From Octopus sinensis (Eukaryota): 28,026 nt of DNA. Location of the stretch: positions 1 to 28,026 of the forward strand of contig NW_021827523.1 of NCBI RefSeq assembly GCF_006345805.1, given 5' to 3'. This document shows positions 1,566-27,960 of the stretch, piece after piece (the stretch's first letter is position 1; each line of letters opens with the position of its first letter). The notes under the pieces are model-generated. The model was not told where the DNA came from, did no database searches, and saw only the letters and a program-made list of their open reading frames with translations. Position numbers and translations under genes: made by a program.

Positions 1566-1658
1566 GTTTCTTAAGATGCAGTAAAAAGATTTATTCGTCA
1601 TAGAATTCTGCCAAATTTGTCAAAAGGCGAGGAAATTGCCAATTATACTGATAATAAC

Positions 1659-2290
1659 AGAGGCACGATAACGTGGCTAAGTTCGTCCACTGGAGGCTAT
1701 GTGAAAAGTACGGCCTGAACACAGCACGAAAATGGTACGAACAGGAACCAGAAGTGACCGAGGACAAGGAACATAAGATACTGTGGGATTTTACAATCCG
1801 ATGCGACTCCCTAATCGAGGCTCGGAGACCAGATATTGTTGTGGTAGATAAAGGGGAAAAGGAAACCAAGATCATAGATATTACAATACCTAGAGATGCA
1901 CACATAAGTGATAAAAAATTAGAAAATATCGAAAAGTACAGACTACTAAAAGACGAAATTGCAAGAATGTGGACTATGAGGAGAGAGGTTGTTGGGGCAC
2001 TCGGAACACTAACAACCAAGTTCGAATAATTTGTCGAAGAAATCGGAATTGACATGAGAGCAGAGCGAGCCCCCAAAAACTGCTCTGCTGGGGACAGTTA
2101 GGATTTTGAGATTGGTACTTGGATGTTGAATGTCTCCCACAATAATTTAAAACGAAGTATCAAAGCTTATAATGTGCAGAAAGAGACCCTGTGAGGCCTC
2201 TGAGAGCAGTCTGCTGTCTGTTCTCATAGAATCTACCAAAGCAAACAAGACCAAACGTTCTGAGAAATAAAACGATAATAGTAATAATGA
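1659..2290 (+). mobile_element. 5'-truncated R4/Dong-like non-LTR retrotransposon 3' end (restriction-like endonuclease domain plus 3' UTR)
   Basis: Translation RHDNVAKFVHWRLCEKYG..KWY..KILWDFTIRCD..RRPDIVVVDK..IIDITIP..EKY..VVGALG, then after a frameshift ALLGTVRILR. This is the RHD / PD..D / KY pattern of RLE domains. Ends in degenerate TAA repeats at ~2266-2292. Confidence 0.88.
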
Positions 2291-4720: not shown

Positions 4721-5114
4721 CATTTCTGATCTAGGCACAAGGCCCGACATTTTGGAGGAGAGGGCCAGTCGATTAGATCGACCCCAGTATGCAATTGGTA
4801 CTTGGTTTATCGACCCCGAAATGATGAACGGCAAAGTCAAACTCGGCAGAATTTGAACTCAGAACATAAAGACAGACGAAATACGTATTTCATTACTACC
4901 CACAAGGGGCTAAACACGGAGAGGACAAACAAGGACAGACAAAGGGATTAAGTTGATTACATCGACCCCAGTGCGTAACTGGTACTTAATTTATCGACCC
5001 CGAAAGGATGAAAGGCAAAGTCGACCTCGGCGGAATTTGAACTCAGAACGTAACGGCAGACGAAATACCGCTAAGCATTTTGCCCGACGTGCTAACGATT
5101 GTGCCAGCTCGCCG
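4721..5114 (-). mobile_element. SINE family A dimer with 16-bp target-site duplication
   Basis: Two tandem core units; flanked by ccatagaaagcttatt at 4705-4720 and 5115-5130. Confidence 0.93.
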
Positions 5115-9363: not shown

Positions 9364-9389
9364 TTTATTAAAATTGCAAACTCTTCGCA

Positions 9390-9431
9390 AACTGTTACTC
9401 AGAGTTTCACGTTGCCGTTCGTCGGACAGCT
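9390..9431 (-). ncRNA. Type I hammerhead ribozyme-like motif (U4C core variant)
   Basis: Minus strand reads AGCUGU-CCGACGA-ACG(GCAA)CGU-GAA-ACUC(U)GAGU-A-ACAGUU: three helices, core boxes in order, GUA cleavage triplet. Confidence 0.7.
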
Positions 9432-9589
9432 GTGATGAAGGCTTTTTAATAAGAGCATATTACTCTACTTTAAGTATTCGAATACTATTTCTTCTAACAT
9501 GCTTCGCATATATATATGATCTCTTGAGCACCACCAGCAAAAAAATTTTTTTCTTCTGTCTTCCCTTCTTGGGATCTTTCCTTTTCCTT

Positions 9590-9624
9590 GTTTCCGACGA
9601 AGAGCTCCGCTCGAAACGTTAAAC
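9590..9624 (+). ncRNA. Minimal hammerhead ribozyme-like motif (Penelope-like pLTR type)
   Basis: GUUU-CCGACGA-A-GAGC(UCC)GCUC-GAAA-CG-UU-AAAC; helix III reduced to the palindrome AACGUU. Confidence 0.55.
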
Positions 9625-10261
9625 CCTCCTTCCCTTCTTTCCTGAGCGTCAAATAATACTTTAATTGTTCCACGTCCTCGCGTTGCTGTTTTTTCTGTGT
9701 TTTCTTGTTTGGATTAACTATATATATATATATATATAATATATTATATATATATTTATATACAGACACGCCACCATATATATATATAATATATATATAT
9801 ATATAATATATATATATAAAATTCAAAATGGGACAAGGATGCAAAAATACCGGACAACTAGGTGATACAAAAAGGGACAACAAAACATCCAGATAGACGG
9901 AACAAAAAAAAATAATAAAACAAGGACGGGTCATTCAAAGCTTTCTATCCTCAGCCAAGAACCAGATTATCGTCGCTATTTCGGCCGATTAATCTTGAGA
10001 TTGCTCCAATCTGGCCAGCCACAAGAAAAACTAAGCTAACAGCATTAGATTCCTCCTCCTCCTCCTCCTCCTCCTCCCTGAAAATGTGCGAGACCACACT
10101 ACCAATTAGAAATCTTTGTAATAATTTGTTTCCCTCCATGGGGCAATTGCAGATGGGATGAGTTTAAGGGGCAGACAAAATGCCTTACGGTGTTCTAGTT
10201 CTTCCTTTAATATTATTAAGGCGCGCGACGCTCTGACTAGGGGTGGGTGCACTTATCTTCT

Positions 10262-11675: not shown

Positions 11676-11851
11676 TATTTCTTTATTGCCCACAATGGGC
11701 TAAACATAGAGGGGACAAACAAGGACAGACATAGGTATTAAGTCGATTACATCGACCCCAGTGCGTAACTGGTACCTAATTTATCGACCTCGAAAGGATG
11801 AATGGCAAAGTCGACCTCGGCGGAATTTGAACTCACAACGTAACAGCAGAC
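11676..11851 (-). mobile_element. SINE family A fragment (core plus internal tail)
   Basis: Reverse complement of ~14085-14258. Confidence 0.9.
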
Positions 11852-13427: not shown

Positions 13428-13449
13428 TATATATATATATATATATATA

Positions 13450-13497
<48 letters not shown>

Positions 13498-13592
13498 GGA
13501 GTAAACACATAAAATGTGAAACAAGGTGGAAAAAGAGTACTGAAATACCAGTGGTAGAGTATATGCTTATTTAAAGCAGCAGAAAATTCAAC

Positions 13593-13636
13593 AAACTGTT
13601 ACTCTGAGTTTCGCGTTGCCGTTCATCGGACAGTTT
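13593..13636 (-). ncRNA. Type I hammerhead ribozyme-like motif (left arm of palindrome)
   Basis: AAACUGU-CCGAUGA-ACG(GCAA)CGC-GAA-ACUC(A)GAGU-A-ACAGUUU; 7-bp helix I. Confidence 0.65.
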
Positions 13637-13642
13637 TTGCAA

Positions 13643-13686
13643 AAACTGTCCGATGAACGGCAACGAGAAACTCAGTGTAACAGGTT
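13643..13686 (+). ncRNA. Hammerhead ribozyme-like motif (right arm, more mutated)
   Basis: CUGU-CCGAUGA-ACG(GCAA)CGA-GAA-ACUCAGUGU-A-ACAG; mismatches in helices II and III. Confidence 0.5.
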
Positions 13687-13716
13687 TTGTTGAATTTTCT
13701 GCTGCTTTAAATAAAG

Positions 13717-13758
<42 letters not shown>

Positions 13759-14026: not shown

Positions 14027-14641
14027 AAGACGGCGAGCTGGCAGAAAGGTTAGCATGCCGGGCGAAATGCTTAGCGGTATTTCGTCTGCCGCTACGTTCT
14101 GAGTTCAAATTCCGCCGAGGCCGACTTGGCCTTTCATCCTTTCGGGGTCGATTAAATTAGTAGCTGTTACACACTGGGGTCGATGTAATCGACTTAATTC
14201 CTTTGTCTGTCCTTGTTTGTCCCCTCTATGTTTAGCCCCTTGTGGGCAATAAAGAAATAAGAAACGTTTACACGCCGGGCGAAATGCTTAGCGGTATTTC
14301 GTCTGCCGCTACGGTTCTGAGTTCAAATTCCGCCGAGGCCGACTTTGCATGTCATCCTTTCGGGGTCGATAAATTAAGTACCAGTTACGCACTGAGGTCG
14401 ATGTAATCAACTTAATCCGTTTGTCTGTCCTTGTTTGTCCCCTCTGTGTTTAGCCCCTTGTGGGTAGTAAAGAAATTGGTATTTCGTCTGCCGCTACGTT
14501 CTGAATTCAAATTCTGCCGAGGTCGACTTTGCCTTTCATCCTTTCGCAATCGATAAATTAAATACCAGTTGTGTACTGAGGTCGATCTAATCGAGTGGCC
14601 CCTTCCCCAAAATTTCCAGCCTTGTGCCTAGAATAGAAAAG
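14027..14641 (+). mobile_element. SINE family A trimer with 16-bp target-site duplication
   Basis: tRNA-like head (gagctggcagaa..gagttcaaattcc); three tandem cores; flanked by aatattccatggttta at 14011-14026 and 14642-14657. Confidence 0.93.
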
Positions 14642-20809: not shown

Positions 20810-21375
20810 GCGATGATGGTGATGATAATGATAACGTTGGTGACGACGATGATGATAATGATGATAATGATGAAAGTGATAACGATGATGAGGATGATGA
20901 GGATGACGAGAATGATGATGAAGATGATAATGATAACGTTGGTGACGACGATGATGATAATGATGGTAATGATGAAAGTGATAACGATGATGAGGATGAT
21001 GATGATGACGAGAATGATGATGAAGATGATCATGATAACGTTGTGACGACGATGATGATAATGATGGTAATGATGAAAGTGATAACGATGATGAGGATGA
21101 TGATGATGACGAGAATGATGATGAAGATGATAATGATAACGTTGGTGACGACGATGATGATAATGATGGTAATGATGAAAGTGATAACGATGATAAGGAT
21201 GATGATGATGACGAGAATGATGATGAAGATGATCGTGATCATGATGATCATAATGACGACGACGACTAAGAGGCTTTGCCGCTGAGGCTCGTGATGATGT
21301 GATGATGATGATGACGATGATGATGAGGATGATGATGATGATGATGATGTTGATGATGATGATGATCGCCGTAAT
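20810..21375. repeat. (GAT)n-derived tract containing four ~102-bp tandem units
   Basis: Anchor ataacgtt at 20831, 20933, 21035, 21136. Confidence 0.92.
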
Positions 21376-22825: not shown

Positions 22826-25512
22826 CAGTGGTTTTATTTTTATAGCGTGCTTACACTTCACTACCGAGCGCAGCTCTGTGTGCCTTGGGTATGTGCTGTG
22901 ATTTGTTGTGATGCTCTGATGGTTATTGCATGGAAAGTGTTCTGCGTAGGATGTGTGCAGTGCCTAGTAGTGCAATTTCTGTATGTTATATGTGTTTGTA
23001 AGTCCTGGTGTTTTTGTTATGTATTTGTCTGAATATTTTTTTATCATCCTAATGCAAATGCACCTACTATGATAGGAATTGTTTTCTGTTTTCAGTTCCC
23101 ACATTCTAGTTATCTCTATTTCCAGGTCTTTGTATTTTGAGAGTTTCTCCATTTCTTTTAGAGACACGTTGTCATCTGCCGGTATTGATACATCAATTAG
23201 AAAGCATTTTTTTCTTCATGATCTCTGACAACTATATCTGGTCTGTTGGCCTTAATTTCTCTATCTGTGGTATCGGCATATCCCAGAGTATGGTTGCTTT
23301 CTCGTTTTCTGTGACTTTTTCTGGTGTGTGCCTATACCATCTTTTTTCTGTTGTTATTCCATAATGTTGGCATAGCTTCCATGTATGTAGGTTCCAACTC
23401 TGTCATGTCTGTGAATATATTCCTTCTTAGCCAGGACTGGGCAGCTAGAGATAATATGATTTATTGTTTTCTTGTCCATCTCCACATATTCTGCAGTTAC
23501 TTGTAATATTTCTTTTCATTACATGTTTTTGGTAATTTCTTCTGGTGGGGAGGCTTTAGTCTTGTGCTGCAATTAACAATCCCTCTGTTTCTGCTTTGAG
23601 TCCTGAGCTTCTCAACCATTGCTGGGATTTTTCTTTGTCTATTTCTTTTGGCGTTTAGTTTAGTCCAGTATTTACCATGAAGGGGCTTTTCTTGCCAGTC
23701 GTTTTTATCATGGTTCGTTGCTGTTCTATTTTTAGTTTGGATTTCATTTGTTTATAGCTTTTTGTTGTTTCTTCTTCTTCTTCTTCATCTTCTTCTTCTT
23801 CATGTTTATTAGGTGGTATGATTTCTTGTTTGTATTTGTCAGCTTCCTTAAATACTGAGAACAGTTTTTTTGTGTTTTGCTCGTGTTTTGCCGCTATCTG
23901 GATCAGTTTTCCTTCTTCTGAAGTAGAAGTTTGTCAGTCCTATGGTGGTTATTTTATAGTAGTTTTCCAGCTGTATAAGGCCTCTACCACCTTCTATACG
24001 TTGTATATATAGTCTTTCTATGTCAGATTTTTGGTGATGCATCCTAGATCCTGTCATTATTTTTTCTTGTTTTCCTATCTATTTTGGTCAGTTCATTTCG
24101 TGTCCAGTTAAGGATATTGTAGCTGTAACTTATAACTGGGACAGCTAAAGTGTTGATACCTATTATCTTGTTTTTAGCATTGAGCTCTGTTTTTAGTATT
24201 GATCTAACTCGTCTATAATATTCTTTTTTTATTTTCTCTCATTTGTGTGTGTTGTGTCTTATCTATTCATGGATTCCTAAGTATTTGTAAGTTTGGCTTT
24301 GGTCTAATTCTTTTATTTCATTGGTTTTATCTAGTGTGATGTTGTTACTCTTAACTAGTTTTCCTCTTTTCATGGTTACTTTGGCGCATTTTCTAATCCA
24401 AATTTCATATCTATTTCTTTGGTAAATCCATGAACTGTCTTTAATAGTGTTTCCAGCTGTTTGTCATTTGCAGCGTATAGTTTTAGGTCATCCATATATA
24501 AAAGGTGGCTGATCGTTTTGCCGTAACATTTATATCCGCATCCAGTTCTATTTAGTATATCAGATAGAGGTGACAGTGCCAAGCAGAAAAGGAGTGAGAG
24601 AGCGTGTCTCCCTGGAATATTCCTCTTCTAATGGGGATGTCTTTGGTTTTCATGAGTCCCTCTTTTGTTTGGAGGTGTAGACGGTTTGCCATTTATTCAT
24701 AGAGTGCTCTATGAATTTTATGATTGTTGGTGCTACTTTGTTAATGGCTAGTGTTTCGAGGATCCATGTGTGGGGGATGCTATCAAACGCCTTTTTGTAG
24801 TCAATCCAGGCCATACTGAGGCTTTTCTTTCTTCTTTCTGTGGCTGTCTTCAGTTATGGCTTTATTAATCATTAGTTGATCTTTACAGCCATATGAGCCT
24901 TGCGGCATCCTTTCTGCTCTTCTGGGAACAGTTTGTTTTCGTCCAGGTGCTTGTTCAGCCTTTGCGATATCACTGCAGTAAATGCCTTGAACATAGTAGG
25001 GAGGCAGGTTATTGGTCTGTAGTTTTCTGGTTTTGCTGTTTCATTTGATTTGGGAATTAAGATGGTTTTCCCCTTTCGTGAGCCATTCAGGCATCGTCTC
25101 TGCTCTGCTAGTATGTGTTAAAGTTTTCAGCCAGCTTTTTGTGCATTCCTGTTAGATATTTCAACCAGAAGTTGGGGATCTTGTCATGCCCAGGTGCCTT
25201 CCAGTTGCTTAGTCTTTGCAGTGCCTGGGTGACCTCTTCAGGTTGTTATGGGGGTCCAAAGTTGTTCAGATGCCGAGTTTGTTATTTTGATACTCCTTTT
25301 TTTTTGGTTGTTCGTTCGCCGACCATATTTCTCTCCAGAATTCTTCCAATTCTTCTGCCGTTGGTGCTGCAGTGACTCCTATTTTATTTTTTCCCAGTTC
25401 TTGGTAGAACTTTTTGGGGTTGGTGTTGAACTTTTTGTTTTGTTTAAAGAAGCGTTGGCGTTTCTCGTACCGGCGGATCCTTTGTGCTTTGGCAAGGATA
25501 TCTTGCTTCAGC
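22826..25512 (-). mobile_element. 5'-truncated, frameshifted R4/Dong-like non-LTR retrotransposon (RT plus RLE)
   Basis: Minus-strand motifs in order: NWKAPGHDKIPNFWLK, NYRPITCLPT, EQKGC, WIDYKKAFDSIPH, GIFQGD, HLLYMDDLKLY, RLY..R..GGRGL, IISSCPVL..YIHRHD, RPDIVV..LIDV, KEMEKLSKYKDL. Flanked by (TAA)n on both sides. Confidence 0.93.
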
Positions 25513-26381: not shown

Positions 26382-27960
26382 GTTTCGACCAAAGATTGGT
26401 CCAGGCCATGTCTAACTTAATAGCACCACCTGATAGGATTATTTGAATCCTGTTTAAGTCAAGTTTTGTTTATGGTCCATTCAAGTAGTGAGTTTTTGTT
26501 GGGTGAGTTGTATCCAATTATGGGTGGCTTATCTGGTATTCTTTGAAGGAATCTATCCAGACTCCGTTTAAAGTTGATGGGAACCTTTTTCCTCTTTGAT
26601 CTCTTTCGGGACAATGTTAAATAGGGCAGGGCCTGTTGAGGAAAAAATTATGTTGCAGTGTACATGTATGCTGTGATCTTGAATTGGGCAGGGGACGTAT
26701 GGCCCGTGGTCCCGTCTTGGATGAACCTTGAAGCTAATGTTCAGATCGTTTGGACAAAGTTGGCGGTATATCTCCACATCGTACAAATGATGTACCGCTC
26801 ACGGCGACGCTGAGAGAGTAGAGTTTCAGGCTTTAAGGCGATCCCAAAATCGAGAGCAGCCATGCTTCAATTCGTTTAGTGAGTGCCCTCTGGGGTGATT
26901 CAATCCTCGAGATGTTTTGTCTTGTATTGGGGAAACCACAGTGGGCAGCAGTATTCGAGGTGTGGCCGTACAAAAGGGAGAAAAGTGGTATGATGGCACC
27001 TTGTCTCTGGACGGAAAGTTCTTAAGATCCAGGAACTCATCCTACGAGCTATATCGACCTTATTGTTGATGTGTGCACTCCAACTGAGATCGTCATCACC
27101 AATTACACCCAGATCTCTGATATTGTTAGAGGCTGTGAGCGGTTCTCCTGAAGGAAGAGAGTATGGCTTTTTAGTGAGGAATTTCTTCAAAAATGCATCA
27201 CTCAAATTTTCCCTCGTTCAGTTGCATTTGTTTCTGTCTGCCTATTGACTCACAGCATATAGATCAGACTGGAGTTGAGTTCGGTCTGCTCTCTTCATTG
27301 ACGATTTGCTGGAGCTTAGTGTCATCAGCAAATATTTTCACTTTGCAGTAATGTACGACACTGGAAAGGTCGTTTATGTAAATTATGAGAGTAGCGGGCC
27401 CAAACAGTCTCCGGGGGATACCGCAGGTGACTTTTTGCTGGCTTTGAGTGGATTCCATCAACTACAACATGTTGTGTTCTATTCGCCAGGAAATACTTAA
27501 TCGGTGTAGAACTTTTCCACGGATTCCAACAGTTGCCAATTTTGAGAGTAGGATGTTATGGTCCTACCCTGTCGAACGCTTTACTGAAGTCAAGATATAT
27601 GACATCAGAGTTCGAACCTGTTCCCAAGGCTTTGAGTATATCTTCATGTGGTGTAAGAGCTGAGTTAGACAGTCCCTGCCACAGCGAAAGCCATGCTGAT
27701 TTGCATTTAGGATTTGTGGGTCTCCAGGAGTCAGCTATCCTCGATCTTAACACTCTTTCAAACACTTTAATGATGTAGGAGGTGAGTGAGATTGGGCGAT
27801 AGTTGACTGCGAGGAATCTGTTTTCCGCCTGTTGGAAAACCGGGATGACTGACTGGGATAAAACTGTTCGGTATAAACCTGCATCTAACGGAATTTCTCT
27901 CCAGAGGTTGGTCAGAGGGACTGCTAGTTGGGTGTCCTACATTCTTTCGTGGAGACTAGC
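26382..27960 (-). mobile_element. 5'-truncated, disrupted CR1/L2-group LINE (reverse transcriptase and 3' end)
   Basis: NYRPISLTS..KVFER, DVIYLDFSKAFDRV, G(I)P..GP..IYINDL, KIFADDTKL, RDLGV..D.DLSW..HI, FVRPHLEYC..LW.P; terminates at a (TA)n tract. Exact clade not resolvable by eye. Confidence 0.9.

What the first reader, a model, noticed from the sequence alone, without database searches (positions are those of the whole stretch)
13496..13721. Palindromic cassette encoding a hammerhead ribozyme on each strand
Seen: a ~160-bp loopless palindrome centred on tttttg|caaaaa, set between (TA)n tracts, each arm holding the same type I hammerhead motif. The arms differ at a few positions, which argues against a simple read fold-back artefact, and a related inverted arrangement occurs independently at 9390-9510. 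A transcript from either strand would contain a ribozyme preceded by its own antisense, so the RNA could be either a long dsRNA hairpin (Dicer/ADAR substrate, ribozyme off) or a self-cleaving fold. Known: Penelope-like elements often leave inverted pLTRs. Inference: a small non-autonomous palindromic ribozyme element, possibly an undescribed family.
Basis: partly seen in the sequence, partly recalled or inferred. Interest (0 to 1): 0.75.

Follow-up and report, generated by a model that had tools for sequence, protein, structure and literature searches.

The report
Head-to-head Hydra-clade Penelope insertion stub
The palindrome is two short back-to-back copies of the end of a protein-coding Penelope-type jumping gene, one of at least 1,100 such stubs in this genome; it is a known insertion shape, likely made when both cut ends of a TA repeat each copy the element's RNA up to its front end and the two copies join.

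Summary
The palindrome and both hammerhead-like motifs are real. It is not a self-propagating palindromic element. It is the shortest form of a head-to-head insertion of an autonomous 3.35-kb Hydra-clade Penelope-like element (PLE) found here. The genome holds 1,107 tight palindromes among 6,706 arms. One arm ends at a fixed 'short' site and the other at a 'long' site 71 nt further (46 of 50, none long/long). Centres are made anew: 12 centres among 17 near-identical copies. Either arm can reach further upstream (15 versus 5 of 49 pairs), which a single fold-back cannot give. About half the arms stop within 13 nt upstream of the ribozyme, with a one-base edge at an initiator-like A (13.6% loss against 2% per base beyond). 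Likely mechanism: twin priming, run-off at the RNA 5' end, joining by microhomology. Against a simple version, 22 of 23 ORF-start copies extend past that edge. Both window ribozymes carry core and stem defects and are predicted silent. The shape is published, and this scan noted it on other DNA.

The parts
13428..13495 (.). (TA)n target tract, left side
13496..13633 (-). Long arm: pLTR from helix I of the hammerhead to the 'long' end (CCGG|TA), 138 nt here, 142 in most copies
13496..13565 (-). One-sided 70-nt tail between the short and long end sites; in intact elements it runs on into the leader and ORF start
13596..13633 (-). Hammerhead-like motif, left arm (U4C; A10.1.C11.1 mismatch; predicted cut after GUA between 13600 and 13599)
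13634..13645 (.). Head-to-head junction; both arms end 7 nt upstream of helix I and share a GC microhomology at the axis
13646..13683 (+). Hammerhead-like motif, right arm (U4C; A10.1.A11.1 mismatch; helix III pair broken at 13676; predicted cut after 13679)
13646..13716 (+). Short arm: 71 nt ending at the 'short' site (AATAAAG|TA)
13717..13738 (.). (TA)n target tract, right side, followed by (TG)n
9378..9513 (.). Older, diverged head-to-head pair of the same family with an off-centre junction

Best explanation
The palindrome is a pair of 5'-truncated, head-to-head copies of the pLTR of an autonomous Hydra-clade Penelope-like retrotransposon inserted in (TA)n, likely made by twin target-primed reverse transcription. 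Shown: the parent element, two fixed 3' end sites that are internal to its tandem unit, one end of each kind per insertion, separate truncation of the two arms, short overlaps at junctions, and a sharp upstream edge at -13. Inferred: the endonuclease cuts both strands of (TA)n; one DNA end primes at the short site and the other at the long site; on the first pLTR of the RNA both cDNAs run off at or just before the RNA 5' end (-13, probably the transcription start); their 3' ends anneal through 1-7 nt (here GC) and each templates the other's second strand. The hammerheads are passengers of the pLTR and are predicted inactive in this copy.
For: Parent: L111 and L112 carry the same arms around an RT-endonuclease ORF of 707+ aa with RWK, DKT, CxCX5C, CxxC and CxH motifs. 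In 29 of 30 ORF-start loci (read by eye) the tail runs through the long site into the leader and ATG, so both ends are internal sites. End pairing: 46 of 50 long/short, 0 long/long, 4 other. Two syntheses: the short arm reaches >15 nt further upstream in 15 of 49 pairs, the long arm in 5, within 15 nt in 29 (read by hand). Edge: arms reaching -7, -13, -14, -15, -18 number 2291, 1394, 1204, 1180, 1117, a loss of 7.9, 13.6, 2.0 and 1.8% per base; 58 of 100 census arms end within 14 nt. Same source: arms agree at subfamily sites (67 of 75 at position 21, shuffle mean 23.4, max 39), and both pass -14 in 10 of 49 pairs when long arms do in 12 and short arms in 14 (Fisher p 7e-6). Junction overlap is 1-8 nt in 44 of 50. 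Independent contigs show TA loose ends at both sites in 4 of 4 runs and opposite-strand joints at -13/-14 in 2 of 4. In vitro, an Anolis PLE cuts and extends both strands from two internal sites (PMC11167929).
Against: In 22 of 23 ORF-start copies with an intact upstream motif the pLTR extends past -13; only L179 starts at about -12. So -13 is not the 5' end of every template, or a further template jump is needed. No RNA data fix the start site. In vitro the Anolis enzyme used the same start sites on both strands, whereas here the pairing is nearly strict. 39 of 79 census regions gave no automatic pair; some are single-armed or had the partner outside the DNA fetched. L048 is short/short and L036 has an end at +40. 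Subfamily agreement between arms could also come from subfamilies being active at different times. Chance matching lengthens measured ends by a few bases (background). The pairing count rests on the first 50 of 1,107 loci, all on contig C1.
Confidence: 0.72

Rival explanations
1. Self-priming or fold-back: one cDNA, or an antisense template, folds on itself and copies its own arm, as proposed for head-to-head Penelope junctions in Adineta.
For: Published model (PMC3846280, Discussion passage). Loopless centres are common, and two rare changes are mirrored in both arms of L009 and L025.
Against: A fold-back copy must lie within the first arm. The short arm reaches further upstream in 15 of 49 pairs, and it cannot supply the tail of the long arm. 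L081 and L105 have a long arm of only 10-13 nt. Singleton variants: 0 in both arms, 60 in one arm.
Confidence: 0.08
2. A self-propagating non-autonomous palindromic element, transcribed as a hairpin with a tail and mobilised in trans.
For: Fixed outer ends and a narrow size range; all 40 scored hits cover both arms; one centre recurs in 6 of 17 young copies.
Against: 12 centres in 17 near-identical copies; one odd centre recurs on two different arm haplotypes (L035, L062); mirror-image centres occur; sizes grade up to 5-kb ORF-bearing insertions; stubs lack the sequence 3' of the long site, which the Anolis enzyme needs in its template (PMC11167929).
Confidence: 0.07
3. Same twin-primed origin, but the -13 edge is a reverse-transcriptase block (RNA structure, bound protein or a processing site), not a transcription start.
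For: 22 of 23 ORF-start copies pass -13; the edge lies 7 nt from the extended helix I; losses are spread from -4 to -13.
Against: The last step is one base wide and falls on the A of a YYANWYY-like motif (consensus recalled) kept across subfamilies. Penelope of Drosophila has an internal pLTR promoter with an initiator (PMC2377424, passages). A splice acceptor is unlikely, since older subfamilies lack the AG and arms run past it.
Confidence: 0.2
4. Assembly or polishing artefact, or arms made alike after insertion by gene conversion.
For: No independent contig spans this locus; its indels differ from the family.
Against: 1,107 loci with varied, often asymmetric junctions; short-read contigs hold many such joints; 0 of 60 singleton variants are shared between arms.
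Confidence: 0.02

Closest known systems
Hydra clade of EN+ Penelope-like elements (Craig et al. 2021, PMC8557442; saw section 11, search passages, and supplement rows of Files S1, S2, S7 and Fig. S7)
   Same: RWK, DKT, CxCX5C, CxxC and CxH motifs, no cysteines in the GIY-YIG core, C-terminal endonuclease, (TA)n target, hammerhead in the pLTR. The File S2 row of Hydra-2_aMil has the same helix I, core, helix III stem and GUA site as the young subfamily here.
   Different: A different family from Hydra-1_Obim (protein and hammerhead differ, compared by eye). The unit is about 3.35 kb, above the '<3 kb' given. Helix II is shorter and mismatched in young copies, and U4C is common. No two-site pairing or 5' edge is reported in what I read.
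Typical EN+ PLE insertion with inverted 5'-truncated pLTR and one-sided tail (PMC8557442 Fig. 2 legend; PMC3846280, passages and Discussion passage)
   Same: Head-to-head pLTRs, palindromic junction, tail at one end only.
   Different: The tail is 71 nt, not 30-40. Here the whole insert is often only the two pLTR ends. The published explanation is self-priming on an antisense template, which the asymmetric pairs contradict.
PAc (Poseidon of Anolis) in vitro reaction (Frangieh et al. 2024, PMC11167929; read parts 1-2 of 4)
   Same: Both strands cut and extended, two internal start sites that bound the tail, AT-rich target, hammerhead cleavage not needed.
   Different: PAc showed no strand difference in start site, and its sites lie in the ORF. 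Here they lie upstream of the ATG and pair one-and-one.
Minimal hammerheads of PLEs (Cervera and de la Pena 2014, PMC4209133; read parts 1-2 of 4)
   Same: Type I, palindromic helix III suited to dimers; the paper notes dual motifs about 100-700 bp apart on opposite strands and low activity in vitro.
   Different: No G10.1-C11.1 pair; U4C in 108 of 225 arms; motifs only about 12-30 nt apart.
LINE-1 twin priming (recalled, no paper read)
   Same: Both DNA ends prime cDNA, joined by microhomology into an inversion.
   Different: LINE-1 arms copy non-overlapping parts and start at the poly(A) tail. Here they overlap and start at two fixed internal sites.

Membership tests
EN+ Penelope-like element (parent) | Single ORF with RT and C-terminal GIY-YIG endonuclease | tested here: met
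   707+ aa ORF with YRDDG and a GIY-YIG-like block; 1143 homologues at E<=1e-20, the best one carrying PF01541. Direct Pfam and PDB searches gave 0 hits.
EN+ Penelope-like element (parent) | Partial tandems forming pLTRs | tested here: met
   29 of 30 ORF-start loci are preceded by the tail; tandem spacing about 3.35 kb.
EN+ Penelope-like element (parent) | Inverted 5'-truncated copy with tail at one end | tested here: met
   46 of 50 long/short; L111, L112, L113.
Hydra clade | RWK, DKT, CxCX5C linker, CxxC and CxH, no CCHH | tested here: met
   All present in the L111 protein; no cysteine in the GIY-YIG core; DKG and CX2-5CxxC absent (definition).
Hydra clade | Insertion in (TA)n and a hammerhead in the pLTR | tested here: met
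Hydra clade | Placement in the RT phylogeny | not tested
   Reference proteins were seen only in the supplement and compared by eye; no tree built.
Type I hammerhead ribozyme (window arms) | Core CUGANGA/GAAA/NUH with helices I-III | tested here: inconclusive
   Layout present; helix I and III pairs hold in 215-225 of 225 family arms, with little compensatory change; both window arms have U4C and an unpaired 10.1-11.1.
Type I hammerhead ribozyme (window arms) | Self-cleavage | not testable with these tools
   The hammerhead fold scores -0.9 to -2.9 kcal/mol against -6.1 to -7.6 for the best monomer fold, and the full hairpin -112.7.
Non-autonomous palindromic element or MITE | One inherited structure with a fixed centre and symmetric termini | tested here: not met
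   12 centres in 17 copies; termini asymmetric.
Non-LTR retrozyme | Head-to-tail non-coding monomers, each with a hammerhead | tested here: not met
   Arms are head-to-head and derive from a coding unit (definition in bioRxiv 10.64898/2026.07.22.740005, part 1 of 5 read).

The most novel reading that the evidence does not exclude
These stubs are the 'strong-stop' record of Penelope replication: an asymmetric enzyme dimer primes one DNA end at each of two fixed sites in the first pLTR, both cDNAs run to the capped 5' end at -13, and either anneal to each other (palindromic stub) or jump to the downstream pLTR as in retroviral strand transfer (long and more-than-unit copies). This would explain inverted pLTRs, the one-sided tail and partial tandems with one mechanism.
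Probability: 0.3. Interest if true: 0.7.

Novelty: new member of a known kind. Interest (0 to 1): 0.38.

Why it matters
As an element it is ordinary: a new family in a described clade, leaving a described insertion shape. Its use is as a data set. How PLEs form inverted pLTRs with a one-sided tail is called open in PMC8557442 and PMC11167929. More than a thousand stubs from a young family with an apparently intact ORF give three testable rules: one end of each kind per insertion, two separate cDNAs, and a one-base 5' edge. The second argues against the published self-priming model. The loci could also be a source of 80-bp double-stranded RNA when read through, which I could not test.

Tried and rejected
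Rfam at E<=1: no hammerhead match; the miRNA hits reflect the hairpin and microsatellites. Centres first looked like flip-flop isomers; wider sampling showed nested truncations of either arm. Arm homogenisation after insertion: 0 of 60 singleton variants shared. Splice acceptor as cause of the edge: AG not kept in older subfamilies. Pfam and PDB searches with the 621-aa ORF part: 0 hits. A genome-wide count of long/short, short/short and long/long pairs was not obtained, so pairing rests on samples. The automatic end caller gave false short/short calls where a C>T change in the long arm mimics the short end (L094, L039, L167, L072, L001, L006, L007). The young-centre count had an index error and was redone. 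Sequencing runs: no RNA holder listed; only contigs were available, so start site, strand and expression are untested. The motif at 24853 lies in an RT-like coding stretch (recognised by eye) and was dropped. Literature: searches with twin priming + Penelope + inverted (2 unrelated papers), Penelope-like + inverted + both strands + cDNA + microhomology + tail from 2022 (0), Penelope + head-to-head + strong-stop (0), Penelope-like + Hydra clade, octopus + Penelope + hammerhead and one search found no paper with this mechanism; the library lacks most subscription papers. No paper on the effect of U4C was found; Lunse et al. 2017 was not read. Supplements of the bioRxiv preprint and of PMC11167929 were not seen and may bear on strand-specific start sites.

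Full report
Observation. The palindrome is at the stated place, with its axis between 13639 and 13640. The arms align over 80/83 nt with three substitutions and two gaps, between (TA)n tracts. Each arm reads as a type I hammerhead: helix I CUGU/ACAG, core CCGAUGA and GAAA, a palindromic helix III, and a GUA site. Both have C at position 4 and an unpaired first pair of helix II; the right arm also loses a helix III pair at 13676. The left arm carries a 70-nt tail that the right arm lacks. Positions below count from the C of helix I (CTGTC); the right arm ends at +71 ('short' end) and the left arm at the equivalent of +142 ('long' end).

Copy number. A DNA search of the own genome (2.72 Gb) gave 1,770 candidates; the 40 scored all cover both arms. 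A pattern for two head-to-head arms at most 20 nt apart matched 1,107 loci, control 0. A pattern for a single arm matched 6,706 places. Tight palindromes are therefore roughly a third of the arms, and the rest include wider inversions and single arms.

Parent element. Two loci with arms 4-5 kb apart hold an ORF between them. In L111 it is open for 707 aa and has RWK, DKT, YRDDG, CxCX5C, CxxC and CxH, and no cysteine inside the GIY-YIG block. These are the features that Craig et al. give for the Hydra clade, which inserts in (TA)n (PMC8557442 section 11). Their hammerhead table lists Hydra-2_aMil with the same helix I, core, helix III stem and cut site. The octopus member they list, Hydra-1_Obim, is a different family by eye. 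In 29 of 30 loci holding the ORF start, the tail continues through the long site into a leader and the ATG. Both end sites are thus internal to a tandem unit of about 3.35 kb, as for the two start sites of the Anolis element in vitro (PMC11167929). I built no tree. The host is probably an octopus, judged from recalled repeats and scan notes only.

Rule 1: one end of each kind. Of the first 50 of the 1,107 palindromes, 46 pair a long with a short end, none pairs two long ends, and 4 were called short/short. By eye one of those is long/short with an internal duplication, one has an interrupted arm, one has an end at +40, and one is truly short/short. In a census of 79 regions covering the first 100 arm matches, the automatic caller found 38 long/short and 4 short/short pairs, and no pair in 39 regions; three of the four have a long end further out. 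After the short site 75 arms read (TA)n and 90 read on into the tail; after the long site 74 read (TA)n and 21 read on into the leader (top classes).

Rule 2: two separate copies. I read the upstream ends of both arms by hand for 49 pairs of the census. The short arm reaches more than 15 nt further in 15, the long arm in 5, and they are within 15 nt in 29. A fold-back of the long arm cannot give a short arm that reaches further, and a fold-back of the short arm cannot give the tail. This contradicts self-priming, the model offered for such junctions in Adineta (PMC3846280), at least for asymmetric insertions. The arms do share a source: they agree at subfamily sites far above shuffled pairs (67 of 75 against 23.4; 70 of 74 against 28.5), while 0 of 60 singleton variants are in both arms. 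Two rarer changes are mirrored (L009, L025). Junction overlaps are 1-8 nt in 44 of 50. Seventeen palindromes whose arms are within two edits of an intact pLTR have 12 different centres, so the centre is made at each insertion.

Rule 3: a sharp upstream edge. Of 100 census arms, 58 end within 14 nt upstream of helix I, 9 at 15-30, 6 at 31-58 and 27 at 59 or more (chance matches add a few bases). Genome-wide for the U4 subfamily, 2291 arms reach -7, 1394 reach -13, 1204 reach -14, 1180 reach -15 and 1117 reach -18. The loss is 7.9% per base up to -13, 13.6% in the next step, then about 2%. The A at -13 sits in CCATTCT, an initiator-like motif (consensus recalled). Contigs of two other studies show opposite-strand joints at this place. 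The two arms tend to fall in the same class: both pass -14 in 10 of 49 pairs, with margins of 12 and 14 (p 7e-6). Against a simple start-site reading, 22 of 23 ORF-start copies extend past -13 in their upstream pLTR; 7 of the 30 loci were left out because the upstream motif was absent or altered. Longer read-through templates or a template jump would be needed.

Mechanism. The best fit is twin priming at a double-strand cut in (TA)n, one DNA end at each start site, with run-off at the RNA 5' end and annealing of the two cDNA ends. In the window both arms end at -7 and share GC. The commonest centre anneals through CTAG. The cut, the priming and the start site are inferred; the end pairing, truncation pattern and edge are shown.

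Ribozyme. Across 225 indel-free arms helices I and III pair in 215-225, but position 4 is C in 108 and the 10.1-11.1 pair forms in only 56; the youngest subfamily has U4 with an A.A mismatch. A read-through transcript of the window copy would form an 80-bp hairpin that hides both motifs. Published PLE hammerheads are weak, need dimers or protein, and are not needed for insertion in vitro. I predict no cleavage here. Expression was not testable.

Verdict. Real, and a known kind of structure from a new family of a known clade. Opposite-strand hammerhead pairs and the inverted pLTR with a one-sided tail are in print. Earlier notes of this scan reached similar readings on other DNA, which I saw after forming mine and do not count as support. 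The counts that separate twin priming from self-priming, and the one-base edge, were not found in my searches and are the part worth following.

Noticed in passing
window 9586-9625 (+): An unrelated hammerhead-like motif (CCGACGA, 4-bp helix II GAGC/GCTC, GAAAC) 80 nt from the older pair; probably the end of another Penelope-like family.
   Followed up: no
window 24700-24950 (-): A CTGAAGA..GAAA match lies in what looks like a LINE reverse-transcriptase coding stretch, so it is not a ribozyme.
   Followed up: partly
family arms, position 21 (hammerhead 11.1): All four bases occur by subfamily; the youngest subfamily regained U4 but has an A.A mismatch at the base of helix II (106 of 225 arms). 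Unexplained.
   Followed up: partly
L100, L131, L162: The long arm stops at +63 to +70, at the short start site, as if the two polymerases met on one RNA; only 3 of 49 pairs, weak.
   Followed up: partly
L120 (two units 299 nt apart), L060, L065, L118: Duplicated stubs and internal duplications starting near the hammerhead; possible template jumps.
   Followed up: no
L179: An ORF-start copy whose 5' end lies at about -12, directly against (TA)n.
   Followed up: partly
window 14043-14476, 4751-5114, 11676-11851: A 218-nt tandem unit with inverted copies elsewhere in the window; looks like a common SINE-type repeat.
   Followed up: no
window 20812-21239: A 102-nt higher-order repeat built from (GAT)n, 4 copies, 97% matches.
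   Followed up: no
window 1658-2029, 26900-27936: Fragments that read like LINE proteins (recognised by eye).
   Followed up: no
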